Shown: piece by piece, positions 4,073-44,827 of the stretch
How the letters are laid out: every line of letters starts with the position of its first letter
Numbering within the stretch: the first letter of the stretch is position 1
Source: Asaia bogorensis
GTDB lineage: Bacteria > Pseudomonadota > Alphaproteobacteria > CACIAM-22H2
DNA: 64,000 nucleotides
NCBI GenBank assembly: GCA_945892765.1
Contig: CAMDDQ010000001.1
Location: 40,486-104,485, forward strand
Direction: 5' to 3'
Program-made: the position numbers and the translations under genes
The notes under the pieces: model-generated
What the model was told of the DNA's origin: nothing
Databases searched by the model: none
The model's input: only the letters and a program-made list of their open reading frames with translations

Positions 4073-5016
4073 GCGAATTCCTTCCGAACCCCGAAACCGC
4101 GGACGCGGTCGCCGGCTGGCTCGAATGGCTGGCGACGGAACGCCGCGCCTCCCGCCACACTCTTTCCGCCTATCGCCACGACCTGCTCGCCTTCCTCGGC
4201 TTCATGGGTGGACATCTGGGCAGCGCCCAGTCCCCGGCCGATCTGGCGCTTCTCCGCACCGGCGATTTCCGAGCGTTCCTCGCCCGCCGCGCCGGCAAAG
4301 GCCTGACCGCCGCGACCAATGCCCGCGCGCTGTCGGTCCTGCGTTCGTTTTTTCGCTGGCTCGACCGCAACGGCCACGGCAAATGCGCCGGCCTCGGTGG
4401 ACTGCGCTCACCCAAGTTGCCGCGATCGGTGCCGCGCCCGTTGACCGTGGACGACGCGCGCAACGCGGTCGATCAGGTCGGCGATCTCAGCGACGAACCC
4501 TGGGTGGGTTTACGCGATACCGCGCTGCTTTGCCTGCTCTATGGATGCGGCCTGCGTATCGACGAGGCGTTGTCATTGAACCGCAGCGACATCGCGCCCC
4601 TGCTCCAGGGCGCGGACAGCCTGATCGTGCTCGGCAAAGGCCGTAAGCAGCGCATGGTCCCGGTTCTGCCCGCCGTGCGCGAGGCGCTGGCCGCCTATCT
4701 CGCTGTCTGCCCCCATGCCGCCGGCGTCACCGCGCCGGTGTTCTTCGGCATGCGCGGGAAACGCCTGCACGCCGGCATCGTGCAGAAACGGGTGCGAGAA
4801 CTGCGCGGCCTCATCGGCCTGCCCGACCGGGCCACGCCACACGCGCTGCGCCACAGCTTCGCCACACATCTGCTGGCCGCTGGCGGCGATCTGCGCGCCA
4901 TCCAGGAACTGCTCGGCCACGCCTCGCTGTCGACAACACAGCGCTACACCGAAATCGACGAAACCCAATTGCTCGCCGTCTACGACAAGGCGCATCCGCG
5001 AGCCCGTCGGGCGTAG
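4051..5016 (+). CDS. xerC: tyrosine recombinase XerC
   Basis: Carries HALRHSFATHLL and the LGHASLSTTQRYTEID catalytic Tyr motif. Start MAGPHDLSEF chosen by the usual XerC N-terminus. Confidence 0.9.
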   Translation: MAGPHDLSEFLPNPETADAVAGWLEWLATERRASRHTLSAYRHDLLAFLGFMGGHLGSAQSPADLALLRTGDFRAFLARRAGKGLTAATNARALSVLRSFFRWLDRNGHGKCAGLGGLRSPKLPRSVPRPLTVDDARNAVDQVGDLSDEPWVGLRDTALLCLLYGCGLRIDEALSLNRSDIAPLLQGADSLIVLGKGRKQRMVPVLPAVREALAAYLAVCPHAAGVTAPVFFGMRGKRLHAGIVQKRVRELRGLIGLPDRATPHALRHSFATHLLAAGGDLRAIQELLGHASLSTTQRYTEIDETQLLAVYDKAHPRARRA

Positions 5017-5573
5017 CCCGGCTGGGTTGGAATCAGCAAGGGGCAGTAGGGAAAGAAATGTGGGGGCCGCTTGGTCCCCACACCCCCAATAGTCCCGGGC
5101 AGGCCAGCTCCTCCGGCGCCTGCCTCGGACAATTCACGGCTTAGCGGGCTGAAGCCGGCAGTCCCGACCACAGCTCCACATCGTCGCGCTATACCCACCC
5201 GGAACACGCCGAATTTGAAGCTGTCGGCCGTGCGATAGGCGATGATCACGTTGAAGGGGAATTCCTGGCCGGTAAGGTCTTCCTTCAACACCTTGAAGAC
5301 GAGCCGGTTGCCCACAGGCTGGATGCGATTGTCGATCAGATGGTCGGTGTCGCCGTCCCAACGCACCCAATAGCCGAGATTGCTGCGCTGCAGCAGCAAA
5401 TTGCCCCAGGGTTTGGCGATGACAAAGGTGGCGAGCGGCTGATCGCCGTGCAGATCGATTTCGCGAACGATCTCGGCGGCCTCCGGCCGAATGGCGAGCG
5501 GCGCCAGGATCGCGCCTTCAACGCTCAACGTCTCGCTCCAGCCTGTGGCCGGAACGAGGAACGCTAACAACAT
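4980..5573 (-). CDS. hypothetical exported protein
   Basis: Signal-like N-terminus MLLAFLVPATGWS and alternating beta-strand-like sequence. The C-terminal ~45 residues are low-complexity and overlap the xerC 3' end, so the true stop is uncertain. Confidence 0.4.
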   Translation of the reverse strand: MLLAFLVPATGWSETLSVEGAILAPLAIRPEAAEIVREIDLHGDQPLATFVIAKPWGNLLLQRSNLGYWVRWDGDTDHLIDNRIQPVGNRLVFKVLKEDLTGQEFPFNVIIAYRTADSFKFGVFRVGIARRCGAVVGTAGFSPLSRELSEAGAGGAGLPGTIGGVGTKRPPHFFPYCPLLIPTQPGYARRARGCALS

Positions 5574-5698
5574 GAAAAAACAGGCAAATCCAAATTTGCA
5601 CGTACACGGCCTTCGGTCGTGTTCCGCTTGGATCGTGCGCCAACAGCGCCCCCCGGTTATCCCCCACTTTTTTTCCCGGCAAACAAAGCCGCGCCACT

Positions 5699-7402
5699 CT
5701 AATGCGGCGCCGCCGTTTGGCCAACCCGCGCCGCGCCGATGGTTCGCGGACGCATCGGTCCCATGGCCGGGGTGTGGAAGACGTGGCAGGCCACGCAGGT
5801 CGAAGGCACCAGCGCGGTCACGTCTTCACCGCCATGGCACCCACGGCAATTGGCGATGCCCGGTAGCAGGACGTCGGAACTGGCAACCGATTTGGGGGCG
5901 GCGTGGCAATCGACGCAGCCGGTGTTCTTGTGTTTGCTGTGATCGAATTTGCCCTTGGGCATCCAGGTCGTCGCCACCAGCACCGGCTTGACCCGGAAAT
6001 TGGGTCTCTCGTCGAGCCTGGTCGTCCGTTCGACGAAGTGGCAGCTCCCGCATATGCTCTTGCCGTAAACGATCTCGATGGTCGCATCGGCACGGCTGCG
6101 CGCCCAGGCCAGCGCTTCGGCGCGCGCCGCTTCCTCTAGCGGCGAGCCGGGACGGCGGCGCACGACGGCCGGCGCTTCGGGATCCTCGAAGCCGCCTTCG
6201 AGGGCGACGCGGCCGTAGAAATCGTTGAGAACATTGGCGACTTCGTCCGGTTTGCCATGCGGCACTTCGCGGTCGAGCGCGCGGGCCTCGAACTTCAATT
6301 TGTGGCAATCGCGGCAATCGGTCTCCATGTCCACCGCGCGCATGCCCACGCCGCCGGTCTCCGGCCGGTGGCAATCATTGCAGACCATTTTCTGCAACCC
6401 GGTGGGGCCCCGCACGCCGGCGTCCACCAAATGTTTGTCGTGCGGGAAGATCAGGTTGGAATTCTCCTTCAGCGCGGGATCGCCGACCGGCAGCCGCACC
6501 AATGTCCGGGTCGCCGGGTCGGTCACCACCGACGGCCGAAATTCGGGGTGATCGCGGCCGAAATCGCTGACATTGATCAGCTTGGTCGTAGGCACCATCG
6601 TGGTCAGCCGCACATGGCAGTCGTCGCACAAGGCCTGCGCCGTCTGGATCGCCGGCTGCCGGCCTTGATGTTCCTTGTGGCAAGACGCGCACCGGGTTTC
6701 TTCCAGGGCCGGCAGACGCACCGTCTTCACGTCGGCGTGGTGGGCGATGTCGTTGTGACAGGTTAGGCAGGCCTGGTCCTGGACCATGATGAACGGCCGC
6801 TCGTGGCAGGTTGTGCAATCAGTCGCGAAATATTTGTGCACACCGGAGATTTCGCCGGATTCCCATGACTTGTCCGCCGCGATCGGCATCGCGGTCATGC
6901 TCTTGTGAAGGTCGGGGATGAAGAAGGCGGCGACCGGAAGGATAAGAAAGAGCAACAGCACGGTGGCAAAGGCGGCCCAAGACAACACACGTTTGCTGAT
7001 CGCGGCATCACCCAAGCGGGCGTGGCTGCGTTGTGTCAGTTCAACGAGATCGTCGCCGAGCGGCTGCACCAGTTCGACGGTAACAGCGACGCCATAGCCG
7101 GGCGGCGCTTCCACGATTTCGATCTTGTAAGGACCGACGGCAATCGAGTCGCCTGGCTGGACGCGGCCGGAGTTGGCGGCGGCTCCGTTGATGGAGAGAT
7201 CGTTGGTGCCCACCGCGGAGACGTAGGACTGGCCGTCGCGCACATGCAGTTCGGCGTGGTCGAGCCCGATCCGCGGGTCGGGTAGATAGACTTCGTTCTT
7301 GGTGCCGCGGCCGATGCGAATGAATTCCACTGTGGCGTCTTGGTCGCGCCGGGAAACGCCACGATTGCCGCGCCGAGTCAGATAGCCGACCTGGACAAGC
7401 AC
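5699..7402 (-). CDS. FHA-domain / single-TM / decahaem cytochrome c fusion protein
   Basis: N-terminal FHA signature (TVEFIRIGRGTKNEVYLPDPRIGLDHAELHV), one TM (VLSWAAFATVLLLFLILPVAAFFIP), then ten CxxCH motifs (CTTCH, CLTCH, CASCH, CDDCH, CNDCH, CRDCH, CGSCH, CVDCH, CRGCH, CVACH). Confidence 0.8.
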   Translation of the reverse strand: MLVQVGYLTRRGNRGVSRRDQDATVEFIRIGRGTKNEVYLPDPRIGLDHAELHVRDGQSYVSAVGTNDLSINGAAANSGRVQPGDSIAVGPYKIEIVEAPPGYGVAVTVELVQPLGDDLVELTQRSHARLGDAAISKRVLSWAAFATVLLLFLILPVAAFFIPDLHKSMTAMPIAADKSWESGEISGVHKYFATDCTTCHERPFIMVQDQACLTCHNDIAHHADVKTVRLPALEETRCASCHKEHQGRQPAIQTAQALCDDCHVRLTTMVPTTKLINVSDFGRDHPEFRPSVVTDPATRTLVRLPVGDPALKENSNLIFPHDKHLVDAGVRGPTGLQKMVCNDCHRPETGGVGMRAVDMETDCRDCHKLKFEARALDREVPHGKPDEVANVLNDFYGRVALEGGFEDPEAPAVVRRRPGSPLEEAARAEALAWARSRADATIEIVYGKSICGSCHFVERTTRLDERPNFRVKPVLVATTWMPKGKFDHSKHKNTGCVDCHAAPKSVASSDVLLPGIANCRGCHGGEDVTALVPSTCVACHVFHTPAMGPMRPRTIGAARVGQTAAPH

Positions 7403-7426
7403 GGTACTACTCCCGCTCCGAAATCG

Positions 7427-8257
7427 TTACCAGTAGAAGAAAACAGAGAAGACGTGGGTGGTCAGGGCCGCCAGAAGGCCGACCGACAACGGCACGTGGA
7501 AAATCAGCCAAATTTCCAGGAATGCACGGTATTGCACGTCGCGCCGCGCGCGACCGACGAGGTCGTCCTTACGGCTCAACAACGTCAGCAACTTACGAAC
7601 GGCGACGGCGTCTTCAACCGAAACCTTGGTCGCCAGTTGCTTGATCCTGGCCAACGCGCGGGCCGTCGGGCAATTGGGATCGCGCCCGGAAAGCTGACGC
7701 CACACCGACCCGCCGATCTGCGTATTGCGGCCGGAATCGAGCACCGCCCGCGTGATCTCGTCGGGCAATCCCATGGAGGCATCGCGGCTTTCCGAATCGA
7801 GCGCGGCGATGCGGGTGAAAATCTCGGTCAGCGTCAGGCCGCCGCGGTTCTGCGTCATCAACGCGGGATACCTTTGGTAGAAAAACACGCCGAACACCCC
7901 GGACAGGATGACCAGCATCATCAAGGTGTAGGCAAGCGTATGCACATTCCAGCCGAACTGGAACCCGGTGTGCAGCGTGGCCACGACGATCAGGGCGAGG
8001 CCGAGATAGACATGCGCCGAGAGCCAGCCCTGGAGCTTCGTTGGACCCAAATTGTACCGCCGCTTGCGCACGCCGAACCACATAAGCCAAAGGACCAAGA
8101 CCGCGCCGATCGTGCCCAGCACGTAGCCGAGCCAGGTGCCGCCATTGGGCGGGTCCATCGGGCTGTCGGCGGCATAGACGATCGCGGCCGCCAGGGCGCC
8201 CAGGACGGCCACCTTCAGATACCGGAAGTTGCGATAGACGAGATAGGATTGATGCAT
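7427..8257 (-). CDS. integral membrane protein, putative di-haem b-type cytochrome (~5 TM)
   Basis: Two TM helices each carry His-x13-His (SAHVYLGLALIVVATLHTGF and IFHVPLSVGLLAALTTHVF), the spacing used for bis-His ligation of two b haems in NarI/FdnI-like cytochromes. Confidence 0.55.
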   Translation of the reverse strand: MHQSYLVYRNFRYLKVAVLGALAAAIVYAADSPMDPPNGGTWLGYVLGTIGAVLVLWLMWFGVRKRRYNLGPTKLQGWLSAHVYLGLALIVVATLHTGFQFGWNVHTLAYTLMMLVILSGVFGVFFYQRYPALMTQNRGGLTLTEIFTRIAALDSESRDASMGLPDEITRAVLDSGRNTQIGGSVWRQLSGRDPNCPTARALARIKQLATKVSVEDAVAVRKLLTLLSRKDDLVGRARRDVQYRAFLEIWLIFHVPLSVGLLAALTTHVFSVFFYW

Positions 8258-8280
8258 CGTCTTTTGGCTGTTGGCCGACC

Positions 8281-10680
8281 TTAGAGACCCCGGTTAGAAA
8301 GCGAGAAGAACTCGTCCGGGCTAACACGAATGGCGGCGCCGGTCGGACAGGCCCGCACGCAGGACGGTCCGCCTTCGATGCCTTTGCACATGTCGCATTT
8401 CACCGCCATCTTGCGTTTGTTGGGGTCCTTTTTCTTGCCGTGGGTGGCTTCCCAGTCCTCGCCGGGTCCATGGCCCAGCCCAAACAACATCCAAGCCAGC
8501 AAACCCGGCTTGGCCGGCGGCTCCGCCGACATGTGGATGACGTGATAGGGACAGTTGCGCTCGCAATTGCCGCAGCCAATGCATTTTTCGTCGATGAACA
8601 CCTCGCCATTCGGCGAACGATGGATGGCGTCGGCCGGGCAGTCGGACATGCAGTGCGGATGTTCACAATGCCGGCACGACGTTGGCACATGGATCGAGGC
8701 ATAGGTCGGCCCAGCCTCGCGATCGAGCCGCGACACGCCGTGATGGGTCTCGGCGCAGGCCTTTTCGCAATTGTCGCACCGCACGCACAGCGATTCGTCG
8801 ATCAGCAGAACGTCAGTTGCCTCGCCCAACCCTTGATCGAGCAGGAACTGCATCAGGTTCGAGTGGTCGGGGCGGCCTTCCATGCGGACGTTTTCGACGA
8901 GCCGCGCTTGGAACCGAGCCTCGACCTCTACGCGCAACTCCGGCGAGCACTCGAGCAGGCCGCGAAAGGCGCCGCCGTCGATCTTTATGGCCTCCGTCGC
9001 CACCGCCGCCCGCACCGTGGCGGTGCGCCGGCTCTTGGTCAGCAGCGCCATTTCGCCGACATAGTGGCCAGCCGGAACATACGACAAAACCACGTCGCGG
9101 CCGCCCAGGCTGCGCGACACGGTCACCGACCCGCTGCGGATCAGATAGACGTTGTCGCCGACATCACCCTCCTTGATCAGCACGTCGCCCGCACTGAAGG
9201 ACTGGATGGTGGCCGTCCGCACGACATCGACGAGGTCGCGCTTGGAAACCTGCGGCGCCAGATGGGTCTGAACCTGGCGGATCATGGCGGTCTCGTCGAG
9301 AACACGTTTGGCCGCGGCGATCGAGCGAGTCAGCTTGATGACCTGCCTGCGCGGCGTCTCGATCAACACGCAATCGGCGCCCGCCACGACCGTCGCCGTG
9401 CGGCGGCGGCCGGAAATCAAACCCATCTCGCCGAAGAATTCGCCGGTCTTCAGCGTCACCTTGATCGCCGGGTTTTCGGCGCTGACCTGGACATCGACCG
9501 ACCCCGACAGGATCGAATAGAAGCTGTTGGAGTAATCGTTGCGCTTGAAAACGGTCTCGCCCTGCTTGGGCACATGGACGTCGCTGTCGAGCAGGAATTC
9601 TCGAAGCTGCAGCTTGGTCAGCGAGGAGAACATCGGCACGCGCTGTTGCACGCCTTCCAGGAACTGCGAGACCGTCACCCCTTGTAGGCCGGTGAGTTTT
9701 GCCTCAAGCAACGGCTCGTCGGCCGGCTTCACCTCATTCCCCAGGATGTACTCGATTACCTCATAGCCCTGGTTCATGCAGTGTTTGATTAGGGGATAAC
9801 CGGCCAGCGCGCCGATGATGTAAAGCCCCTTCACGTTCGATTCGTAGCTGTCGCTGACCCCCGGAACCGAGGCCGGATCGGCGTTGGGGAACACGATGCC
9901 GCAGGCTTCGACGAATTTGCGCGGCGGCAGGGCGCCAATACGAGCGATGACCCGGTGGCACTTGACCACCGCCTCACCCTCCGGGGTTTTCAGAAAAATG
10001 GCGCTGGGATCGGTCTCGACCTTAATGACCTTGGTGTTGAAATAACACTGGATGCGGCCGTCCTTGATGGCCGATTCGATCAGTGCGACGTTGCCCGCCT
10101 TGGCGCGGGCGAAATCGCCCATGACGTTGACGACGATGACCTCGTTCTGGGCGGCCAGCGCGATGGCGTTTTCGAGCCCGGCATCACCGGCGCCGATCAC
10201 AACGATGGTTTCGTCTTTGTATTCTTCTGGATCGTCGAGCTGGTACTGGACGTTGGGGCCGGTTTCGCCGGGTACGCCTAGGGTGCGGATATTGCCCTGC
10301 AATCCAATGGCGAGCACAACGGCATCGGCGGTGAGCGTTTGTTTGTTGGCGAGCGTGATCGTGAAGATCGCGCCGTCCTTCTTGATGCCCGCGACATCGG
10401 CGTTTTGGCGCAGGTTGAATTTCAACTCGCCGGTGCTTTTGTCCCAGGAACCGAGGATGGTTTCGCGGGCGCCTTCCTTGAATTGAAGATCGCTGCGCAG
10501 GGGCAGGACCTCCGGCGTCGCCATGACGTGTTTTTTCTTCTGATACTTGTAGATCGTATCGGAAAGATGGGTGGTGCGTTCGAGCAGGACATAAGACGCG
10601 CCGCGCTTGGCGGCACGCCCCGCCGCGCTTAATCCCGCCGGGCCCGATCCGACAATCGCGATCGCATAGTGTTCGGCCAT
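8281..10680 (-). CDS. NAD(P)/FAD pyridine-nucleotide-disulfide oxidoreductase fused to two cNMP-binding domains and multi-cluster 4Fe-4S ferredoxin domains
   Basis: GSGPAGLSAAG and VVIGAGDAGLENA Rossmann motifs; two CAP-type cNMP-binding segments (FGEMGLISGRRRTATVVA, VGEMALLTKSRRTATVRA); Cys clusters CVRCDNCEKAC, CRHCEHPHCMSDCP, CIGCGNCERNCP, CDMC...CVRACP. Confidence 0.8.
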   Translation of the reverse strand: MAEHYAIAIVGSGPAGLSAAGRAAKRGASYVLLERTTHLSDTIYKYQKKKHVMATPEVLPLRSDLQFKEGARETILGSWDKSTGELKFNLRQNADVAGIKKDGAIFTITLANKQTLTADAVVLAIGLQGNIRTLGVPGETGPNVQYQLDDPEEYKDETIVVIGAGDAGLENAIALAAQNEVIVVNVMGDFARAKAGNVALIESAIKDGRIQCYFNTKVIKVETDPSAIFLKTPEGEAVVKCHRVIARIGALPPRKFVEACGIVFPNADPASVPGVSDSYESNVKGLYIIGALAGYPLIKHCMNQGYEVIEYILGNEVKPADEPLLEAKLTGLQGVTVSQFLEGVQQRVPMFSSLTKLQLREFLLDSDVHVPKQGETVFKRNDYSNSFYSILSGSVDVQVSAENPAIKVTLKTGEFFGEMGLISGRRRTATVVAGADCVLIETPRRQVIKLTRSIAAAKRVLDETAMIRQVQTHLAPQVSKRDLVDVVRTATIQSFSAGDVLIKEGDVGDNVYLIRSGSVTVSRSLGGRDVVLSYVPAGHYVGEMALLTKSRRTATVRAAVATEAIKIDGGAFRGLLECSPELRVEVEARFQARLVENVRMEGRPDHSNLMQFLLDQGLGEATDVLLIDESLCVRCDNCEKACAETHHGVSRLDREAGPTYASIHVPTSCRHCEHPHCMSDCPADAIHRSPNGEVFIDEKCIGCGNCERNCPYHVIHMSAEPPAKPGLLAWMLFGLGHGPGEDWEATHGKKKDPNKRKMAVKCDMCKGIEGGPSCVRACPTGAAIRVSPDEFFSLSNRGL

Positions 10681-11072
10681 GCCGGCCCCCCCTCGGACAC
10701 GTCAACGTTTATCTTGAGCCCCCGAACCCGAATCGACACTTCGCGAAAGGTCCGAGCCGCCAGGATTTCATAGACACGTTAGGGTTATAGCCCGACGGTT
10801 GTCAATTTCGGAGTGTCCTTCTACAGTGCATTTCTGTCACGTCGAACGCGCCCGCAACAGGGGGGAACCAACGGGTGACAAAGCGGCGACGTTCCAGTAC
10901 CCGCTATGGAGCCTGATCGGCGATTTCCCCATGGCCGCGCTGATGGCGATGGGCAGGATGCAGCGAGAAGTGGACAAAGTTGTGGGGGCCCGTCGGGCGA
11001 AGCCCGACTGACTCCGGAGTCGGCCGTTTCGCCGGCAGGGGCCTCCACGCCCCCAATAATCCAGGTCGGTGT

Positions 11073-11687
11073 TTAGGTCTTCCGGCGCAGCGGGCGGATG
11101 CGGGTGAGGTCGGCGGCTTCGGGTTCTCCCCAACGTTTGACCAAACCGAGATCGAGGTCGAACTGATCGAGGATGCGGCCGACCGTTTGGTTGACGATGT
11201 CGTTCACGGTGGCGGGTTTGGCATAAAAGGCCGGCACCGGCGGCATCACCACCGCGCCCATTTCCGTCACCGCCGCCATGCTGCGCAGATGTCCCAGATG
11301 CAGCGGCGTTTCGCGCACCGCCAACACCAGCCGCCGCCTTTCCTTCAGGGTGACGTCGGCGGCCCGGCTCAACAGGCTCGAGGTCACGCCGGAAGCGATC
11401 TCCGACAAAGTGCGGATCGAACAGGGCACGATCGCCATGCCGAGTGTCTTGAAGGAACCGCTGGCCAGCGACGCACCGATATCCGTGACCGCATGGAAGA
11501 CCGCAGCGAGATCGCGCACTTGGGCGACCTTTAGCGTCGTTTCATGGGCCAGCGTGATTTCGGCGGAGCGCGACATCACCAGATGTGTTTCGACATCGGT
11601 CCCGCGCAGCGCTTCCAGCAGCCGAATGCCGTAGACGACGCCGGACGCGCCGCTGATGCCGACGACTAATCTTTTGGGAGAAGCCAT
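11073..11687 (-). CDS. ubiX: flavin prenyltransferase UbiX
   Basis: MASPKRLVVGISGASGVVYGIRLLEAL matches the UbiX/Pad1 N-terminus. Start placed at M13 of the ORF-track frame. Confidence 0.85.
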   Translation of the reverse strand: MASPKRLVVGISGASGVVYGIRLLEALRGTDVETHLVMSRSAEITLAHETTLKVAQVRDLAAVFHAVTDIGASLASGSFKTLGMAIVPCSIRTLSEIASGVTSSLLSRAADVTLKERRRLVLAVRETPLHLGHLRSMAAVTEMGAVVMPPVPAFYAKPATVNDIVNQTVGRILDQFDLDLGLVKRWGEPEAADLTRIRPLRRKT

Positions 11688-11827
11688 GACAACCATCCTA
11701 CCGGCGGCCCGGCAAAGCGGCAATGCGAAGCGCGGCCTTGCCTCGCCGGTATGAAAGACGCACCCTATCCTCCGTGAGCGCCGATTCGCCAGAAGCCGAA
11801 AACGCCAACGCCACCCATCGCGAAAAG

Positions 11828-27081: not shown

Positions 27082-29109
27082 TCAGGCGCCGCGCACCGCC
27101 ATGGGCTGCGGGGCGGCGGTCGCGGTCGCCGACACCTGGGACCCGGGCTGCACGCGTGGCGCCGCCGCCGGCTTGCGGGCCTGGGTAACACGCTCCTGCG
27201 CCGCCTCCAGGATCAGGCGCAGCAGGTCGGCGTAACGCAGCCCGGCATAACTCGCCATGATGTTGAGCTTGCCGTCCCAGCACCAGCCGGGATTGGGGTT
27301 GACCTCGAGCAGCTTGATCGCGCCTTCGGCATCGGCGCGGAAGTCGAATCGCGCATAGTCGCGACAACCCAGGCGCTCGAACAGCACGGTCGAGTAGTCG
27401 ACCAGGCGGCGCCGCACATCCTCGTCGATCGCCGCCGGCTTGTACTTGATCTGCGTCCAATAGGGCGATTCCGGCACCCATTTCGATTCATAAGAAAGAA
27501 TCTTGGGCAAATCGGCGTTGAGCCCGCTGAAATCGACCTCGAGCGTGGGCAGCACCTGATAGCTCAATCCGGGATTGCCGATGATGCCGATGCTGTATTC
27601 CGCGCCGGTGAGATATTCTTGCACCAGCACCGGGCGACCGGGCAATTCCTCGCGCAGCTTTTCCAGATAGGTGATCGCTTCTTCCGGCGTCCACACCACG
27701 GCGTCCTTGGTGATGCCTATGCTGCTGTCGCCGAAACAGGGCTTGATCAGCGCCGGAAAGATAGATGGCAGGTTCGCCGATTGGTCGTCCGGGTTGACAT
27801 AGGTTTCGGCCGGGACCGGGAGATCGAGCGATTCGGCGATCGAACGGACCAACGCCTTGTTGTAACAAAGGCCGAGGCAGCTCGCGCCGGCGCCGGTATA
27901 GGGCACGCCCAGCATTTCAAGCAGCGCCGGCACATGCGGCTCGAGGAAGGCGTCGTTGTTGAAGCCTTCGTCGCAGAGATTGAGCGCGAACTTGGGCGGG
28001 TTGGCGCGAAGCTGGCTGACCATCGCGGTGTGATTGTCGATGAAGTCGAATTTGTAACCGGGCAATTCGCCCAGGGCCTCGCGCAGGCGCTTGATAGTTT
28101 CGAAGTCTTCCTTATTGAACTGGCCGCCGCGCTTGACCATGTCGGGCAGGCGCGGATCACCCATGACAACGCTGACCTCCGGGTAAGCGATGCCGCGCAC
28201 CGCCGTGACCGCGACCTTGCGCGGCGCCTGCGCCGTCAGGAACATACGCGTGGCCATCATGCCCAGGTCTTGGTTGCGGCCGGATTCGGTGCCCACCCAA
28301 TCGTGGAACCGCAGCGATTCGAAACCGACTCGTTCCAGGAGCTCGCGGATGCGTTCACGTGAATAGAGGCGCTCGGCATAAAATTGATCGGCGATCACGC
28401 CGCGTTCGGCATGCACAACAACTTCGCGCGAAACCAGGCGTTGTTGATCGTTGGCGAGCGAACGTTCGCGGCAGACAAAGTGATTCTGGTCGATCCATTC
28501 CCAGGACCGCCGCTCGAAATGCGTCCGCAGCCAGTCGCCATCGGCAAGGTCCATGGCCAGCGTGCCGTTGGAGGCCAGCGCCCGTTTCACCGCCTCCAGC
28601 ACCGCCACGTCGTCTTCCTCGCGGTCGAAATAGCCGTAGGAATTGCCCATCAGCGTGACGCAGTGGAAGGAATTCTCCGGAACCCGAAATTTGCGGGCGT
28701 CGCCTTCATGGAAGGAGACGTTGAGGCCCAACTGCTTGGCGCGTTTGCGGGCGAGCCGGACCAGATAACGCGAGCGGTCGATGCCGGTGACGGCGTTGAA
28801 GCCCCGGCGCGCGAGTTCGATGACGTGGCGACCCTGGCCGCAGCAGAGATCGAGGATGCGGTCGTTCGGCTCCAGACCCGACGATTTGATCAGCGAATCG
28901 ATTTCGCGCCCGGTATTGGTGTCGTTTTCGACGACATCGCCATCGGTTTGGATGTAGAGCGAATTGAACAGCGTCCGCCACCAATCGGATGGCAGGTGGC
29001 GCTCGAGATCGGAAACCGGGCCAAGCGTTCTTACCGGTCCCTGCGGCTTGGGCGTACCGTTCCCATTGGGTTTATGGACGCCGTTGCCGTTGGACGACTT
29101 TTTCGCCAT
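27082..29109 (-). CDS. class I SAM-dependent methyltransferase fused to a D-Ala-D-Ala-ligase-like ATP-grasp domain
   Basis: MTase motif I ILDLCCGQGRHVIELARRG. C-terminal ATP-grasp segments (LVQEYLTGAEYSIGIIGNPG, DYARFDFRADAEGAIKLLEVNPNPGW). Start at M64 of the ORF frame (MAKKSSNG). Confidence 0.7.
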   Translation of the reverse strand: MAKKSSNGNGVHKPNGNGTPKPQGPVRTLGPVSDLERHLPSDWWRTLFNSLYIQTDGDVVENDTNTGREIDSLIKSSGLEPNDRILDLCCGQGRHVIELARRGFNAVTGIDRSRYLVRLARKRAKQLGLNVSFHEGDARKFRVPENSFHCVTLMGNSYGYFDREEDDVAVLEAVKRALASNGTLAMDLADGDWLRTHFERRSWEWIDQNHFVCRERSLANDQQRLVSREVVVHAERGVIADQFYAERLYSRERIRELLERVGFESLRFHDWVGTESGRNQDLGMMATRMFLTAQAPRKVAVTAVRGIAYPEVSVVMGDPRLPDMVKRGGQFNKEDFETIKRLREALGELPGYKFDFIDNHTAMVSQLRANPPKFALNLCDEGFNNDAFLEPHVPALLEMLGVPYTGAGASCLGLCYNKALVRSIAESLDLPVPAETYVNPDDQSANLPSIFPALIKPCFGDSSIGITKDAVVWTPEEAITYLEKLREELPGRPVLVQEYLTGAEYSIGIIGNPGLSYQVLPTLEVDFSGLNADLPKILSYESKWVPESPYWTQIKYKPAAIDEDVRRRLVDYSTVLFERLGCRDYARFDFRADAEGAIKLLEVNPNPGWCWDGKLNIMASYAGLRYADLLRLILEAAQERVTQARKPAAAPRVQPGSQVSATATAAPQPMAVRGA

Positions 29110-29492
29110 TGCGCGCTCGCGTTTTCGGGTTGATGGGGAGGCAAAACCGGCTTCGCCGGGAAAGACATCGGACGCACGCCCGCCCAGGCCGGCTTCGTGC
29201 AACGAAGCGGATGATGAGCCTATGGCCGCCTCCGACCGTAATTTGGCCGGCGGCGGCAGACTACTCCCAGGGTCGGGATCGGGTGATTGACGAGGCATTC
29301 TCGCGCACGTTCGTCGAGCCGCTACTTAACGTCGCGGTCGGACGGCCGTCAAGCGGTTCGGAAACGATTCGCGGCGGGCGACACAAAAAATTGAAGGGTG
29401 CGACTGAGGGGTCACTGTGGATGATTCGATCGCGTGCCCACAGACCGAGATTCGGCCGCCTATGTTTCGCCGAAAAGGCGGTATAGGCTGAG

Positions 29493-32608: not shown

Positions 32609-33169
32609 TCAGCGGCGGAGAGCCGCGTCCACGGCTTGCGTCACTTCGCGAGAGGTTGGCTTCACATCCGATGGCCATGCCCCGATCAGCGCGCCGTCGC
32701 TGCCGATCAGGTATTTGTGGAAATTCCATTGCGGCGAGCCGGCTTCGCCAAGCTGGGCTGCGATCCACCGATAAAAAGGATGGGCGGCAGAGCCGGCCAC
32801 CACCTGCTTGTCGGTCATCGGGAAGGTGACGCCGAAATTGGCTTCGCAGAATTGTTTGATCTCGGCCTTGCTGCCCGGCTCTTGCCCGCCGAAATCGTTC
32901 GACGGAACCCCGACCAGGATTAGGCCCTTCGCCTGGTATTTCTCCCACAGAGCCTGCAGAGTTTCGTATTGGCCGGTATAGCCGCAGAAGGACGCCGTGT
33001 TGACGACCAGGACAGGCTTGCCCTTGTAGTCCTTCAGCGCGAGGTCGCCGCCATCGATCGACGGAAAGGTGAAATCGTGAGCACTCATCGCCACCGCCCC
33101 CATCGAAACCAGCGCCAAACAAACCACAGCAGCCGCCCGCAACGCGAGCCGAACCATCAACTTAACCAT
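32609..33169 (-). CDS. glutathione peroxidase (BtuE-like), exported
   Basis: VNTASFCGYTGQYETLQALW active-site motif with a signal peptide. Confidence 0.85.
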   Translation of the reverse strand: MVKLMVRLALRAAAVVCLALVSMGAVAMSAHDFTFPSIDGGDLALKDYKGKPVLVVNTASFCGYTGQYETLQALWEKYQAKGLILVGVPSNDFGGQEPGSKAEIKQFCEANFGVTFPMTDKQVVAGSAAHPFYRWIAAQLGEAGSPQWNFHKYLIGSDGALIGAWPSDVKPTSREVTQAVDAALRR

Positions 33170-33827
33170 ATCTCTCCTCTTTCCACGGATCCCCGTGATT
33201 GTGATAGCCGCGAGCCTCCCAGAAACCGGGGCGGTCTTGAATTGTGAATTCGAGCCGGCGCACCCATTTCGCGCTTTTCCAAAAATACAGCTTTGGGATG
33301 ATCAGCCGCATCGGCCCGCCATGGTCGGAATGGATCGGTTTTCCTTCCCAGGAATGGGCAAGCAGCACGTCGGATTCGGCGAATTGGGCGAGCGGGATAT
33401 TCGTCGTATAACCGTCATAACTATGGGCGATGACGAACTTCGCGCTGTCATGCGGCTTGACCACGGACAGCAGGTGTTTCGTCGACACGCCTTCCCAATG
33501 GTTATCGTAGCGGCTCCACGACGTCACACAGTGAATGTCGGACATGTCCTGGATCTGGGGTTGCGTCCGAAACTCGAGCCATCCCCAGTTCAACTGGTTC
33601 TCGACGGCGCCGTCGACGACCAGCCGCCACCGAAACGACTCGATCTTCATCTGAAAGCCGAGATCGAGGATCGGCCAATTGGTCACATGGCGCTGGCCCG
33701 GCGGCAGGCGCGGACGCGCCCCATCGGCCGCCTTGCCGGTGAGCAGCCGCCCCTCTTGCGCCCATTTCTGCTTGGCCTCGACCAGCTTCTGGCGGTCCTT
33801 GCCGCCCAAGCGGGCATCTTCGGGCAT
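33162..33827 (-). CDS. molybdopterin-dependent oxidoreductase, sulfite-oxidase fold (short form)
   Basis: SUOX-fold Moco-binding segment (...HCVTSWSRYDNHWEGV...). Its stop overlaps the gpx start by 8 nt. Confidence 0.7.
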   Translation of the reverse strand: MPEDARLGGKDRQKLVEAKQKWAQEGRLLTGKAADGARPRLPPGQRHVTNWPILDLGFQMKIESFRWRLVVDGAVENQLNWGWLEFRTQPQIQDMSDIHCVTSWSRYDNHWEGVSTKHLLSVVKPHDSAKFVIAHSYDGYTTNIPLAQFAESDVLLAHSWEGKPIHSDHGGPMRLIIPKLYFWKSAKWVRRLEFTIQDRPGFWEARGYHNHGDPWKEERYG

Positions 33828-33972
33828 AGTTCGTCTCCTACCGCCGACACTCGACGTCAAGATAGCGCGAATGCGCCCACTGGAAAGGCGTTGTTTCGGT
33901 CACATCGCGTTGATCTGAAATTTCCAGCGGTCGCCTGTGACAAGGAAGACGGAAGCGATTAGGTTCTGCCAC

Positions 33973-42846: not shown

Positions 42847-43395
42847 CTATTGAATGGGCAGGGGACCGTAAAGCCACACCAGCCAGATGGCGAGGGCAAG
42901 AAACGGCCCAAAAGCGATCGAACGGTCGAGACCCGCCTCGCGATTGAACATCCGGCGCAGGCCGAAACCCGCAAGCCCGGCGAGCGCAGCAATCAAGACA
43001 ACACTCGGCAGACTTTGCCAACCAACCCAGGCCCCGGCCGCGGCCATCAGCTTGGCGTCGCCCAAGCCAAGCCCGTCGCGCCCGCGCCAGAGCCGGTAAA
43101 GAGCCGCCACTGAGGCAAAGGCGGCATAACCGGCGACGGCGCCCAGACCGCGGTCGGCAAGTGGACCGCCGTCAATTGCGGCCAGGGCGAGGCCGGCGGC
43201 GGTGAGTGGTAGCGTTAATGTGTCCGGCAGGATGCCGCGCCGGACATCGATCGCGGCCAGGGCCATCAAGGCCCAGGCCAGCCCGCAAGATGCCGCGAGA
43301 TCGAGCCCATCGCGCAGGCTCGCGGCCCATACCGCCAGCCCCGCTGTCCCTGCGACCGCGACGAGGATCGCCCAGACCGGAAACCGCGCCATCAC
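42847..43395 (-). CDS. A24-family prepilin peptidase (CpaA/TadV-like)
   Basis: Polytopic protein with two Asp-containing segments (GILPDTLTL, GLGDAKLMAAAG). Confidence 0.75.
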   Translation of the reverse strand: MMARFPVWAILVAVAGTAGLAVWAASLRDGLDLAASCGLAWALMALAAIDVRRGILPDTLTLPLTAAGLALAAIDGGPLADRGLGAVAGYAAFASVAALYRLWRGRDGLGLGDAKLMAAAGAWVGWQSLPSVVLIAALAGLAGFGLRRMFNREAGLDRSIAFGPFLALAIWLVWLYGPLPIQ

Positions 43396-43483: not shown

Positions 43484-44827
43484 ATGACGATGTATGGCAA
43501 GTTTTCCGCTTGGGTAGCCGCCGTGGTTACGGCCTGGGCGTTGTTTGGGGCGGTGCCCGGCCTTACCGCCACGCTACCGCATTTCGCGGAGGATTCGCAT
43601 CTAGGTGTGACCTCTTGCGCCGGCAGCACTTGCCATGGCGCCGTCGAGCCCTGGAAGGATTCCACGGTTCTCCAAAACGAGTACATCACCTGGCAGCGCC
43701 AGGACAAACACGCCAAAGCCTATCAGGTTCTGCTCAACGAACGGTCGCAGCGCATCGCGAAGAATTTGGGCCTGCCCAACGCCCATACCGCAGAAATTTG
43801 CCTCGACTGCCATGCCGACAACCCCGCCGCGAACAAACGCGGGCGCCAGTTCCAGGTGAGCGACGGCGTCGGTTGCGAAGCCTGTCACGGCGGCGCCCAG
43901 CGCTGGCTCGGCATTCACATCGCCGGGTCCGGCAGCCACCAGGATAATGTCACCGCCGGCATGTATCCGACGGAAAACGCCGTCGATCGCGCCAAGCTCT
44001 GCGTGTCCTGCCATTTCGGCGACACGCGTAAGTTCGTCACCCATCGAATCATGGGCGCCGGCCATCCGCGCATGAGTTTCGAGCTCAATACCTTCACCGC
44101 GATCCAGCCCGCCCATTACCGTGTCGACCTCGACTACCCGAAGCGCAAACGCGTCTTCACCGGCATGCAGACCTGGGCCATCGGTCAGTCCATCGCCTTG
44201 TCCGAGACCCTGGACGCGTTGATGGATGCCAAGCGCGGTCGCGACGGCATTTTCCCCGAACTCGTGTTGTTCGATTGCCACAGCTGCCACCACCCGATGA
44301 GCAACCTGCGCTGGGAAGCGCGCGCCAGCACCGGCCTTGGGCCAGGCGTGGTGAAATTCAACGACGCCAACGTCATCATGCTGCGTATCATCGCCGACCG
44401 TGTTGATCCGGAACAGGGCAAGGCGGTTCGTGCGCTCGGTGTCGCCCTGCACACGGCTTCGACCCAGGGGCACGATGCTATGCTCAAGGTGGCAAAGGAC
44501 CTGCGCGAGGTCAGCGGCAAGCTGACCGACAAATTCGCCGCCCACGTCTTCGGCAAGGACGACATGACCGCCCTGCTGACCGGCGTGGTCAAGGAAGGAT
44601 TGAGCGGGGAATATATCGACTACTCCGCCGCCGAACAGGCGACCATGGCGCTCGGCTCGATCATCACCGCGATGCGCGCCGGCGGCATCATCGACGAAAA
44701 GCAGCAAACCTCGCTCAGCGCAGCCGTGGATAAATGCTACGCCGCGGTGGCCAAGGACGAGGAATATCAACCCAGGACCTTCATTGCCGCGCTTCAATTG
44801 GTCCAGGCCGCGATCCCGAGCTTCTGA
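43484..44827 (+). CDS. secreted pentahaem c-type cytochrome
   Basis: Signal peptide plus CAGSTCH, CLDCH, CEACH, CVSCH, CHSCH. Confidence 0.75.
   Translation: MTMYGKFSAWVAAVVTAWALFGAVPGLTATLPHFAEDSHLGVTSCAGSTCHGAVEPWKDSTVLQNEYITWQRQDKHAKAYQVLLNERSQRIAKNLGLPNAHTAEICLDCHADNPAANKRGRQFQVSDGVGCEACHGGAQRWLGIHIAGSGSHQDNVTAGMYPTENAVDRAKLCVSCHFGDTRKFVTHRIMGAGHPRMSFELNTFTAIQPAHYRVDLDYPKRKRVFTGMQTWAIGQSIALSETLDALMDAKRGRDGIFPELVLFDCHSCHHPMSNLRWEARASTGLGPGVVKFNDANVIMLRIIADRVDPEQGKAVRALGVALHTASTQGHDAMLKVAKDLREVSGKLTDKFAAHVFGKDDMTALLTGVVKEGLSGEYIDYSAAEQATMALGSIITAMRAGGIIDEKQQTSLSAAVDKCYAAVAKDEEYQPRTFIAALQLVQAAIPSF

What the first reader, a model, noticed from the sequence alone, without database searches (positions are those of the whole stretch)
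5699..10680. Three-gene module looks like a signal-gated transmembrane electron conduit
Three same-strand, tightly spaced genes encode (i) a cytoplasmic flavoprotein with a thioredoxin-reductase-like NAD(P)H/FAD module, two cNMP-binding domains and several 4Fe-4S clusters, (ii) a 5-TM protein with His-x13-His on two helices, the di-haem cytochrome b hallmark, and (iii) a protein whose cytoplasmic N-terminus is an FHA (phospho-Thr-binding) domain joined by one TM helix to a periplasmic decahaem cytochrome c. Read together, these are a cytoplasm-to-periplasm electron wire with two regulatory inputs, a cyclic nucleotide and Ser/Thr-kinase signalling. I am not aware of a characterised system with this composition.
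Basis: partly seen in the sequence, partly recalled or inferred. Interest (0 to 1): 0.8.

Follow-up and report, generated by a model that had tools for sequence, protein, structure and literature searches.

The report
Inner-membrane electron conduit module, outer half deleted
The three genes are real and almost always travel together; they look like the cytoplasm-to-periplasm half of a widespread, never-tested bacterial electron-export system (called PCC4 or Ptd in genome surveys), and in this genome the outer-membrane half has been deleted.

Summary
Three minus-strand genes sit 23-24 bp apart. A (8281-10680) is a soluble 799-aa protein with an FAD/NAD(P)H module, two cNMP-binding domains and four 4Fe-4S motifs. 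B (7427-8257) is a 5-TM protein with W-x3-H-x13-H on TM3 and TM5. C (5699-7402) has a cytoplasmic FHA domain, one TM helix and ten CXXCH motifs.

The trio is adjacent in 64 of 66 related loci. It is not new as a gene cluster. It matches the Fe-S gene, inner-membrane protein and decahaem of "PCC4" (He 2017) and PtdE/F/G (2024 preprint), and resembles the Ferrigenium "NHC" cluster (2026 preprint). None has been tested experimentally.

In most genomes the operon continues with a small protein, a double HbpS-like protein, a probable outer-membrane barrel and a decahaem LVIVD protein. In this window those last three genes were lost in a ~7.8 kb deletion. A, B and C remain under purifying selection (dN/dS 0.04-0.13).

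Best reading (confidence about 0.5): NAD(P)H to FAD to Fe-S to two b haems to ten c haems, running outward. Cyclic-nucleotide gating is plausible because the binding residues are conserved. Phospho-Thr reading by the FHA domain is doubtful because the canonical Ser and Asn are not conserved.

The parts
8281..10680 (-). Gene A: soluble 799-aa flavo-iron-sulfur protein (the PCC4 'Fe-S gene', PtdE)
   Evidence: ORF and translation. Pfam and NCBIfam hits. No TM segment. 97% identical to P0241 and 53-65% identical to orthologues in 70+ loci.
9766..10665 (-). A aa 6-305: two-dinucleotide-binding FAD/NAD(P)H module (G11SGPAG, G163AGDAG). No redox-active CxxC.
   Evidence: Pyr_redox_3 E 7e-33 and Pyr_redox_2 E 1e-28. 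Closest solved structures are YpdA/Bdr 7a7b and 7a76. TrxR scores 60 bits against a cut-off of 343, and YpdA 131 against 340. Motifs, conservation.
8887..9609 (-). A aa ~358-598: tandem cyclic-nucleotide-binding domains. PBC motifs are G417E...R427TA and G542E...R552TA.
   Evidence: cNMP_binding E 3e-38 in two stretches. Resembles PKG and PKA-R tandem CNB domains, E 1e-22. PBC Glu and Arg are at least 95% conserved in 71 orthologues.
8311..8808 (-). A aa 625-790: four-cluster [4Fe-4S] ferredoxin-like wire of the HycB/HydN/DmsB type
   Evidence: Fer4_7, Fer4_11 and related families. HycB 7z0s_B E 1e-18 and HDCR HycB3. 16 Cys in four motifs, all conserved.
7427..8257 (-). Gene B: 276-aa 5-TM putative di-haem b protein (the PCC4-type IMP, PtdF). 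It has W78xxxH82x13H96 on TM3, S119GxxG123 on TM4, W250xxxH254x13H268 on TM5, and a 117-aa cytoplasmic helical domain between TM4 and TM5.
5699..7402 (-). Gene C: 567-aa FHA-TM-decahaem cytochrome c (the PCC4 decahaem, PtdG)
7070..7402 (-). C aa 1-111: cytoplasmic FHA-fold domain. G31-R32 is invariant, with a family-specific L40-x-D42-P-R44 patch.
   Evidence: Pfam FHA 29.5 bits. GarA/OdhI E about 1e-6. pLDDT about 90, with Foldseek hits only to FHA domains, target-normalised TM-score up to 0.79.
6905..6994 (-). C aa ~137-166: single transmembrane helix
   Evidence: Hydropathy peak of 2.76. Helix 137-161 in the model.
5774..6838 (-). C aa 189-543: periplasmic domain with ten CXXCH and ten further invariant His (probable bis-His ligation)
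   Evidence: Cytochrome_C7, c3_2 and Paired_CXXCH hits.
5691..5710 (-). Terminator-like hairpin plus T-tract overlapping the stop codon of C
   Evidence: This is a consensus match only; the number of such sites does not exceed the shuffled expectation.
4980..5573 (-). Remnant of the conserved small gene ('s164') that follows C in about 44 related loci. The homologous part is 5196-5555, and the 3' 70 codons are read-through.
   Evidence: tblastn 39% identity. The L004 orthologue ends '...FRVGIAQ*', overlapping the D start codon. No Pfam hit.
5093..5186 (.). Deletion scar. The close relative L004 carries about 7.8 kb here (genes D, E and F).
   Evidence: blastn of window against L004: window 5186 matches L004 12220, and window 5093 matches L004 20057. 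D, E and F are absent from the whole window.
43484..44827 (+). Possible detached partner: a tetrahaem cytochrome (c554-like), homologous to the tetrahaem gene that lies within 10 kb of the cluster in about 36 of 80 loci by tblastn
   Evidence: The association is by homology and recurrent neighbourhood elsewhere. In the window it is 36 kb away.

Best explanation
A, B and C form one inner-membrane complex that carries electrons from a cytoplasmic pyridine nucleotide to the periplasm without using the quinone pool.

Proposed path: NAD(P)H reduces the FAD of A's N-terminal module. Electrons pass along A's four [4Fe-4S] clusters to the cytoplasm-side b haem of B (His82/His254). They cross the membrane to B's periplasm-side b haem (His96/His268). 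They then enter the ten bis-His c haems of C, whose first haem motif lies about 30 residues beyond its TM helix.

In most genomes C would hand electrons to an outer module. This is either D (HbpS-like), E (putative barrel) and F (decahaem with an LVIVD propeller), or the 4-haem, 5-haem and porin set of PCC4/Ptd. That would reduce something at or beyond the outer membrane. In this genome the outer module is deleted, so the acceptor must be periplasmic, for example the tetrahaem protein at 43.5 kb or a soluble reductase or oxidant.

The tandem cNMP-binding domains lie between the flavin and Fe-S modules and most likely gate the flow allosterically. The FHA domain is more likely a cytoplasmic docking or regulatory module than a classical pThr reader. 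It could bind A, or B's 117-aa cytoplasmic domain, independently of phosphorylation.

Shown: domain content, cofactor-binding motifs and their conservation, topology, gene linkage, the deletion, and purifying selection. Inferred: complex formation, cofactor occupancy, direction of flow, gating and the acceptor.
For: - Domain content and motifs.
- All cofactor ligands are conserved in 71-81 orthologues: 16 Cys, 4 His in B, ten CXXCH plus ten His in C, both GxGxxG motifs and both PBCs.
- Topology: B is N-in and C-out, with each His pair split between leaflets. C has its FHA domain inside and its haems outside.
- Linkage: A-B-C is adjacent and in the same order in 64 of 66 loci anchored on C. The same operon appears when anchored on A. 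A and B (44-66% identity) are more conserved than C (36-50%).
- The outer partners are modular: D-E-F in 53 of 56 loci, or the PCC4/Ptd set in L068. In Nisaea the operon lies next to type II secretion genes.
- The trio is retained under purifying selection after loss of D-E-F: dN/dS is 0.04-0.05 for A, 0.05-0.06 for B and 0.12-0.13 for C, with no stops or frameshifts.
- Direction, from established bioenergetics (my own knowledge): outward electron movement is favoured by the membrane potential. NAD(P)H at -320 mV is a competent donor to Fe-S clusters and to low-potential bis-His haems.
- Precedents (my own knowledge): NOX and ferric reductases, MsrQ-Fre, FdnH-FdnI and HycB-type wires.
Against: - No experiment exists for any member of the family.
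- He et al. 2017 and the Ferrigenium preprint both favour inward flow from Fe(II) oxidation to quinone. The cluster does occur in Fe(II) oxidisers.
- A quinone site in B cannot be excluded.
- NADH versus NADPH preference is undetermined. The TrxR 'HRR' motif is replaced by N-V-M, read directly from the sequence.
- The haem domain of C was modelled poorly (pLDDT 30-50), so no wire geometry could be checked.
- No A:B:C complex model could be run.
Confidence: 0.5

Rival explanations
1. Quinone-linked module, as proposed by He et al. 2017 and the Ferrigenium preprint. B, or C in the manner of CymA/NrfH, exchanges electrons with the quinone pool. The system links periplasmic or extracellular redox chemistry such as Fe(II) or Mn(II) oxidation to the respiratory chain. 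A would be an accessory, regulatory or alternative-donor subunit.
For: Di-haem b proteins with H-x13-H helices often carry quinone sites (cyt b of bc1, FdnI, hydrogenase cyt b), as argued in PMC5566968 section 17. The cluster occurs in Zetaproteobacteria and Gallionellaceae Fe(II) oxidisers. PCC4 subgroup I (Hyphomicrobium) is reported to lack the Fe-S gene.
Against: A is present and adjacent in 64 of 66 loci, and it is the most conserved of the three proteins (dN/dS 0.04). That is hard to square with an accessory role. A complete NAD(P)H/FAD plus four-cluster wire has no obvious function if electrons stop at quinone. No quinone-site motif was identified. Hosts include ordinary aerobic heterotrophs such as Oceanibacterium, Desertibaculum, Zavarzinia and Nisaea.
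Confidence: 0.2
2. Inward conduit of the Tmc/Hmc kind. Low-potential periplasmic or extracellular electrons (H2, sulfide, cathode or a partner cell, via cytochromes) are carried through C and B to A, which reduces NAD(P)+ or a ferredoxin-like acceptor in the cytoplasm.
For: The layout is the same as in the Tmc/Hmc complexes of sulfate reducers (my own knowledge): a periplasmic multihaem c, a membrane cytochrome b and a cytoplasmic Fe-S protein. C gives a weak TmcA hit, E 4e-6. Every cofactor in the chain is reversible in principle.
Against: Inward electron movement works against the membrane potential. With Fe(II) or Mn(II) as donor it is also strongly uphill chemically (my own knowledge). No hydrogenase or other low-potential donor gene is conserved in the neighbourhood. 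Hosts are mostly aerobic or microaerobic Alpha- and Gammaproteobacteria.
Confidence: 0.1
3. Redox sensor rather than a bulk conduit. The haem, Fe-S and flavin chain reports periplasmic redox state to the cytoplasm. The cNMP-binding and FHA domains would be the signalling interface.
For: Two signalling-type domains (CNB and FHA) are unusual in a respiratory complex. FHA domains of GarA/OdhI regulate enzymes by direct binding (one search hits, plus my own knowledge).
Against: No output domain is present in A, B or C, and none is conserved next to them: no DNA-binding, kinase, GGDEF or similar gene. Sixteen redox centres are far more than sensing needs. The usual operon partners are a putative barrel and large multihaem cytochromes.
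Confidence: 0.05

Closest known systems
PCC4 gene cluster, subgroup II (He, Barco, Emerson & Roden 2017, Front Microbiol 8:1584), which equals ptdABCDEFG (bioRxiv 10.1101/2023.11.21.568154): the Fe-S/cNMP protein (PtdE), the inner-membrane protein (PtdF) and the decahaem (PtdG)
   Same: B carries every motif that defines the PCC4 inner-membrane protein: five TM helices, W-x3-H-x13-H on TM3 and TM5, and SGxxG on TM4. A Fer4_11 (pfam13247) gene lies directly upstream and a 10-haem cytochrome directly downstream. The related locus L068 shows the full PCC4/Ptd layout with 4-haem and 5-haem cytochromes and a probable porin.
   Different: The window has no porin or pentahaem gene, and its tetrahaem homologue is 36 kb away. 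Its lineage belonged to a different, more common layout (A-B-C-small-D-E-F) and lost D-E-F by deletion. The published descriptions are purely genomic. They treat the decahaem as simply periplasmic, do not report the FHA domain or the flavin module, and assume a quinone-active inner-membrane protein.
Ferrigenium straubiae 'NHC' cluster (bioRxiv 10.64898/2026.01.22.701106, section 6.3.2)
   Same: An FHA-TM-multihaem cytochrome, a 5-TM protein with no database match and a [4Fe-4S] protein are encoded together. The predicted topology is the same, and the cluster was expressed under all conditions tested.
   Different: Nine haems were reported rather than ten. It lies next to nirK. The authors propose inward flow from Fe(II) oxidases to quinone and consider the 5-TM protein non-redox.
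NADPH oxidase / ferric reductase superfamily (NOX, FRE, STEAP) and bacterial MsrQ-Fre
   Same: The logic is the same: a cytoplasmic NAD(P)H flavoprotein feeds two b haems stacked across the membrane, bound by His pairs on two parallel helices (TM3 and TM5), and these reduce an acceptor on the outside.
Tmc/Hmc (and Qrc/Dsr-type) transmembrane redox complexes of sulfate reducers
   Same: A periplasmic multihaem cytochrome c, a membrane cytochrome b and a cytoplasmic Fe-S protein are encoded as one operon and form a trans-membrane electron path.
   Different: There is no homology above curated cut-offs (TmcA 26.7 bits against 114). The cytoplasmic subunit there is HdrD-like and lacks flavin and cNMP domains. 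Flow there runs inward from H2. No FHA domain is present.
FdnGHI / NarGHI / HycB-type Fe-S wires docking on di-haem cytochrome b
   Same: A four-cluster ferredoxin-like module (HycB 7z0s_B, E 1e-18) would hand electrons to a di-haem b membrane subunit.
   Different: There is no molybdopterin or hydrogenase catalytic subunit. The Fe-S module is fused to a flavoprotein. The b subunit is unrelated at the sequence level.
GarA/OdhI FHA regulators (closest solved FHA domains)
   Same: The FHA fold matches, with target-normalised TM-score up to 0.79. GarA and OdhI also bind and regulate metabolic enzymes directly through the FHA surface.
   Different: The canonical Ser (SxxH) and loop Asn are not conserved here. 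The domain is tethered to a membrane cytochrome. Residues 1-24 are β-strands of the domain rather than a phosphorylatable tail.

Membership tests
PCC4-type inner-membrane protein (He et al. 2017) | Five predicted TM helices | tested here: met
   Hydropathy and the model helices 12-31, 42-67, 72-97, 105-138 and 214-275.
PCC4-type inner-membrane protein (He et al. 2017) | W-x3-H-x13-H on TM3 and on TM5, and SGxxG on TM4 | tested here: met
   W78-H82-H96, S119GVFG123 and W250-H254-H268. Conserved in 76 orthologues.
PCC4 / Ptd gene cluster | Fe-S (pfam13247) gene upstream of the inner-membrane protein and a 10-haem cytochrome in the cluster | tested here: met
   A has Fer4_11 at E 1e-9. C has 10 CXXCH. 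The gene order is A-B-C.
PCC4 / Ptd gene cluster | A porin plus 4-haem and 5-haem cytochromes in the same cluster | tested here: not met
   The trio in the window is flanked by a ubiX-like gene and xerC. The only other multihaem ORF is a tetrahaem at 43484-44827. The full set is present in the related locus L068.
FHA domain (PF00498) | HMM score above the gathering cut-off, and an FHA β-sandwich fold | tested here: met
   29.5 bits against 20.7. The top 50 Foldseek PDB hits are all FHA domains.
FHA domain as a phospho-Thr reader | Conserved Arg (GR), Ser (SxxH) and Asn (β6-β7 loop) that contact pThr | tested here: not met
   G31-R32 is invariant. The Ser position is Gly in the window and variable in the family, and the loop Asn is variable. 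The family instead has an invariant L40-x-D42-P-R44 patch. Binding itself was not assayed.
cNMP-binding domain (PF00027) | HMM match, and a phosphate-binding cassette with conserved Glu and Arg | tested here: met
   130 bits in two stretches. G417E...R427TA and G542E...R552TA are at least 95% conserved. The ligand (cAMP or cGMP) cannot be determined with these tools.
Thioredoxin reductase (TIGR01292) / YpdA bacillithiol-disulfide reductase (TIGR04018) | Score above the curated cut-off, and for TrxR a redox-active CxxC | tested here: not met
   60.5 against 343 bits, and 130.6 against 340 bits. There is no CxxC in aa 1-320; the Cys there are at 212, 241, 260 and 301.
Four-cluster [4Fe-4S] ferredoxin-like subunits (HycB/HydN/DmsB type) | Four Cys motifs (16 Cys), and homology to Fer4_11 or HycB | tested here: met
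   Motifs. HycB 7z0s_B E 1e-18 over aa 625-790. All Cys are conserved. Scores are below the equivalog cut-offs of any named enzyme subunit.
Prokaryotic cytochrome b561 (PF01292) / ferric reductase domain (PF01794) | HMM score above the cut-off, or a clear fold match | tested here: inconclusive
Multihaem cytochrome c | Multiple CXXCH motifs with distal ligands, located on the periplasmic side | tested here: met
   Ten invariant CXXCH plus ten invariant His. Cytochrome_C7, c3_2 and Paired_CXXCH hits are above their cut-offs. Covalent haem attachment cannot be tested here.
Tmc/Hmc complexes | Homology of subunits (TmcA, TmcB/HdrD-like, TmcC) | tested here: not met
   TmcA scores 26.7 bits against 114. 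There are no HdrD-type hits for A. The resemblance is in layout only.

The most novel reading that the evidence does not exclude
A second-messenger-gated, quinone-independent electron exporter. Cytoplasmic NAD(P)H would be wired through FAD, four Fe-S clusters, two b haems and ten c haems straight into the periplasm. Cyclic-nucleotide binding to the tandem CNB domains would switch the flow, and an FHA domain on the cytochrome would act as the cytoplasmic coupling or regulatory handle. This would be a bacterial NOX-like machine with a multihaem output, present in thousands of environmental Proteobacteria including ordinary aerobic heterotrophs, and able to work without any outer-membrane module, as in this genome.
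Probability: 0.35. Interest if true: 0.75.

Novelty: new member of a known kind. Interest (0 to 1): 0.55.

Why it matters
The A-B-C module is very common in environmental Alpha- and Gammaproteobacteria. Thousands of 90%-identity protein clusters were found for A and B, and 301 species genomes matched in a pattern-limited scan. It also occurs in Fe(II) oxidisers, Nitrospira and oxygen-deficient-zone bacteria. Nobody has tested it.

If it exports NAD(P)H-derived electrons directly, it would be the missing inner-membrane step of the PCC4/Ptd porin-cytochrome systems. It would also be a route that bypasses the quinone pool, and the first respiratory-type conduit with a built-in cyclic-nucleotide switch. 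That bears on iron and manganese cycling, on nitrogen loss in oxygen-deficient zones, and on wiring bacteria to electrodes.

This window adds one specific point. The module survives under purifying selection after a clean deletion of its outer-membrane partners, so it has a function of its own in the periplasm.

Cultured hosts make the question directly testable: Oceanibacterium hippocampi, Nisaea acidiphila, Zavarzinia and Desertibaculum.

Tried and rejected
- Thioredoxin or bacillithiol reductase identity for A: rejected. Scores are far below the cut-offs and there is no CxxC.
- A GarA-like autoinhibitory N-terminal phospho-tail, suggested by the conserved 'YLTRKxRGG' with Thr9: rejected. 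Residues 2-24 are confidently modelled as β-strands of the FHA sandwich.
- Wire geometry of the decahaem domain: the AlphaFold2 model is unusable there (pLDDT 30-50), so no comparison with MtrA or NrfB was attempted.
- A kinase, phosphatase or cyclase partner. None is conserved within 10 kb in 80 loci and there is no Hanks motif in the window. A 64-kb window cannot exclude one elsewhere in the genome.
- The Tenderiales uet/LVIVD preprint and the Methylobacter bioanode paper describe unrelated clusters.
- The ubiX-like gene upstream (11073-11723) is not part of the unit. L004 has 5.3 kb inserted between it and A, and no upstream gene is conserved.
- The promoter scan found nothing above chance.

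Full report
OBSERVATION

The three ORFs exist exactly as described: A 8281-10680(-) of 799 aa, B 7427-8257(-) of 276 aa and C 5699-7402(-) of 567 aa. The gaps between them are 23 and 24 bp.

A has Pyr_redox_3/Pyr_redox_2 at aa 6-305, two cNMP_binding stretches and Fer4 dicluster families at aa 625-790. It has no hydrophobic segment. It carries two GxGxxG motifs and four Cys motifs holding 16 Cys.

B has five hydrophobic helices, with H82-x13-H96 and H254-x13-H268.

C has an FHA hit above the Pfam cut-off, one TM segment at 135-167 and ten CXXCH motifs. Of the other 52 candidate ORFs in the window, only two have any CXXCH.

ANATOMY

A's N-terminal module is closest to YpdA/Bdr and TrxR-fold flavoproteins. 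It scores far below their curated cut-offs and has no CxxC. It is therefore a two-dinucleotide-binding flavoprotein fold, not a disulfide reductase.

The middle of A resembles the tandem CNB domains of PKG and PKA-R (E 1e-22). Both phosphate-binding cassettes keep the Glu and Arg in at least 95% of 71 orthologues.

The C-terminus of A is a HycB/HydN-type four-cluster wire, and all 16 Cys are conserved.

For B, the positive-inside rule gives N-in, C-out. Loops 0, 2 and 4 carry 1, 4 and 20 K+R, and loops 1, 3 and 5 carry none. H82 and H254 therefore lie near the cytoplasmic face, and H96 and H268 near the periplasmic face, on two parallel helices. This is the geometry expected for two stacked b haems. 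A 117-aa helical domain between TM4 and TM5 is cytoplasmic.

C's N-terminal 111 residues are confidently modelled (pLDDT about 90) and hit only FHA domains in the PDB. Sequence searches give GarA, OdhI and Rv1747. All ten CXXCH and ten further His are invariant in 20 homologues.

Only the Arg of the canonical pThr pocket is conserved. The Ser of SxxH is Gly here and variable elsewhere, and the loop Asn is variable. The family has its own invariant L-x-D-P-R patch.

CONSERVATION AND CONTEXT

C has hundreds of full-length homologues at 40-50% identity, mostly in Rhodospirillales and other Alphaproteobacteria, with some Gammaproteobacteria and Nitrospira. A pattern-limited scan of one genome per species found 301 genomes, and 80 loci were fetched.

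Among 66 loci with enough upstream DNA, 64 have A-B-C adjacent in the same order. One locus has A about 9 kb downstream, and one lacks A. Three further loci with short upstream flanks also carry A about 9 kb downstream, in the order B-C-D-E-F-A. Anchoring on A instead of C returns the same operon.

Clustering of all flank ORFs shows that the usual unit is longer:
- A-B-C
- a small protein of about 160 aa (44 loci)
- D, about 670 aa, with a signal peptide and two HbpS-like domains (59 of 65 loci)
- E, about 616 aa, with no Pfam hit, probably an outer-membrane barrel (53 of 56 loci)
- F, about 1280 aa, with about 10 CXXCH and LVIVD repeats (53 of 56 loci)

Nothing upstream of A is conserved. All other recurrent 'clusters' are antisense or alternate-frame shadows of A-F.

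A minority of loci pair the trio with a tetrahaem, a pentahaem and a no-Pfam 538-aa protein instead. L068 is an example.

The window lacks D, E and F entirely. L004, a Rhodospirillales MAG about 92% identical at the DNA level, has about 7.8 kb holding exactly D-E-F between the points equivalent to window 5186 and 5093. L005 has a larger gap.

The small gene after C survives at 5196-5555. It lost its stop codon and reads through to 4980.

A, B and C have no stops or frameshifts. Against both relatives, dN/dS is 0.04-0.05 for A, 0.05-0.06 for B and 0.12-0.13 for C. The trio is therefore maintained without its outer partners.

The rest of the window is housekeeping: priA, DUF484, xerC, a cobalamin island and arginine genes.

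PRIOR DESCRIPTIONS

He et al. 2017 (PMC5566968) defined "PCC4" as follows:
- a porin
- periplasmic cytochromes with 4, 5 and 10 haems
- a 5-TM inner-membrane protein with W-x3-H-x13-H on TM3 and TM5 and SGxxG on TM4
- in subgroup II, a pfam13247 Fe-S gene upstream of the inner-membrane protein

B has all of these motifs, and L068 shows the full layout.

The 2024 preprint on oxygen-deficient-zone Alphaproteobacteria named the same set ptdABCDEFG. PtdE is the cNMP plus 4Fe-4S protein, PtdF a 'ferric reductase-like' TM protein and PtdG the decahaem. The authors state that its function is 'completely unknown'.

A 2026 preprint on Ferrigenium describes an FHA-TM-nonahaem cytochrome with a 5-TM protein and a 4Fe-4S protein. 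It says the combination of FHA and multihaem had not been reported before.

The Gallionellaceae pangenome lists a 10-haem 'Forkhead-associated protein' in 27 genomes.

I found no experimental work.

MECHANISM

The best-supported reading is an outward, quinone-independent path: NAD(P)H, then FAD, then 4x[4Fe-4S] in A, then two b haems in B, then ten c haems in C. From there electrons pass to whatever outer module is present. In this genome that means a periplasmic acceptor.

- Shown: every cofactor ligand and its conservation, the topology, the tight linkage, the modular outer partners, and purifying selection.
- Inferred: complex formation, direction and gating.

The direction rests on established bioenergetics (my own knowledge). 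Outward electron flow goes with the membrane potential, and NAD(P)H is low enough in potential. The reverse from Fe(II) would be uphill on both counts.

cNMP gating is suggested by the position of two intact CNB domains between the flavin and Fe-S modules.

The FHA domain is more likely a docking or regulatory handle than a pThr reader. GarA and OdhI give a precedent for FHA surfaces binding enzymes directly (my own knowledge, with the hits).

The rivals are scored separately: quinone-linked function as proposed in the literature, inward Tmc-like flow, and a sensor role.

COMPARISON AND NOVELTY

By membership, this is the inner-membrane module of PCC4/Ptd. All of its defining features that can be tested in B, A and C are met. 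The cluster-level feature (porin plus 4- and 5-haem cytochromes) is not met here.

By working principle, it resembles three known systems without passing their membership tests:
- NOX, ferric reductases and MsrQ-Fre, in having a flavoprotein feed two transmembrane b haems
- Tmc/Hmc, in combining a multihaem c, a cytochrome b and a cytoplasmic Fe-S protein
- HycB/FdnH-type wires

It is therefore a new member of a kind that is known only from genomics and has never been characterised. It is partly supported on the conduit and the cNMP input, and not supported on pThr signalling.

Noticed in passing
window 43484-44827 (+), with 42847-43395 (-): A 447-aa tetrahaem cytochrome (Cytochrome_C554 Pfam) lies divergent from a prepilin peptidase (Peptidase_A24). 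It is homologous to the tetrahaem gene found within 10 kb of the A-B-C cluster in about 29 loci by ORF clustering (about 36 of 80 by tblastn). In Nisaea acidiphila (L085) the same tetrahaem and A24-peptidase pair sits immediately upstream of A, beside type II secretion genes. Here it is 36 kb from the trio.
   Followed up: partly
window 4980-5573 (-) and 5093-5186: The small conserved gene that follows C in about 44 loci is damaged here. Its stop codon went with the roughly 7.8 kb D-E-F deletion, so it reads through 70 extra codons into the 3' end of xerC. The basic signal-peptide n-region seen in L004 has no in-frame start codon here. About 95 bp of non-homologous scar remain.
   Followed up: yes
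L004 12222-20057, and most of L006-L083, L084, L085: The majority operon layout is A-B-C-(small)-D-E-F. D is a double HbpS-like protein with a signal peptide. E is a 616-aa protein with no Pfam hit that ends in an aromatic residue, probably an outer-membrane barrel. F is 1280 aa with about 10 CXXCH and an LVIVD β-propeller. This differs from the PCC4/Ptd layout in the literature and may be an undescribed outer module.
   Followed up: partly
L062, L073, L076, L079: In four loci, A lies about 9 kb downstream of C, giving the order B-C-D-E-F-A rather than A first. This is a rearranged but still linked version.
   Followed up: no
L025 (Azospirillaceae MAG): B, C, D, E and F are present, but no A homologue was detected within 10 kb upstream. 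This is the only such case with enough flank.
   Followed up: no
L005 12032-12035 versus window 5021-5385: The Baikal relative has a different, larger deletion end-point than the window. It also removes most of the small gene. This suggests either two independent losses of D-E-F in closely related lineages or continued erosion after one loss.
   Followed up: partly
L004 1193-6514 versus window 10884-10887: L004 carries about 5.3 kb between the ubiX-like gene and A that is absent from the window. I did not examine its content.
   Followed up: no
window 11723-32569: A large cobalamin biosynthesis island: cobO, cobQ, cobD, cbiX, cbiC, cbiD, cbiG, cbiJ, several tetrapyrrole methylases and cobB-like genes. 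It also contains an SCO1/SenC gene and a methyltransferase/ATP-grasp fusion (27082-29298).
   Followed up: no
window 33162-33860 (-): A short (232 aa) molybdopterin-binding oxidoreductase-domain protein lies next to a glutathione peroxidase gene. No MsrQ-like partner was seen beside it.
   Followed up: no
window 5691-5710 (-): A GC-rich hairpin followed by a T-tract overlaps the stop codon of C. It may terminate the shortened operon. It is a consensus match only.
   Followed up: no
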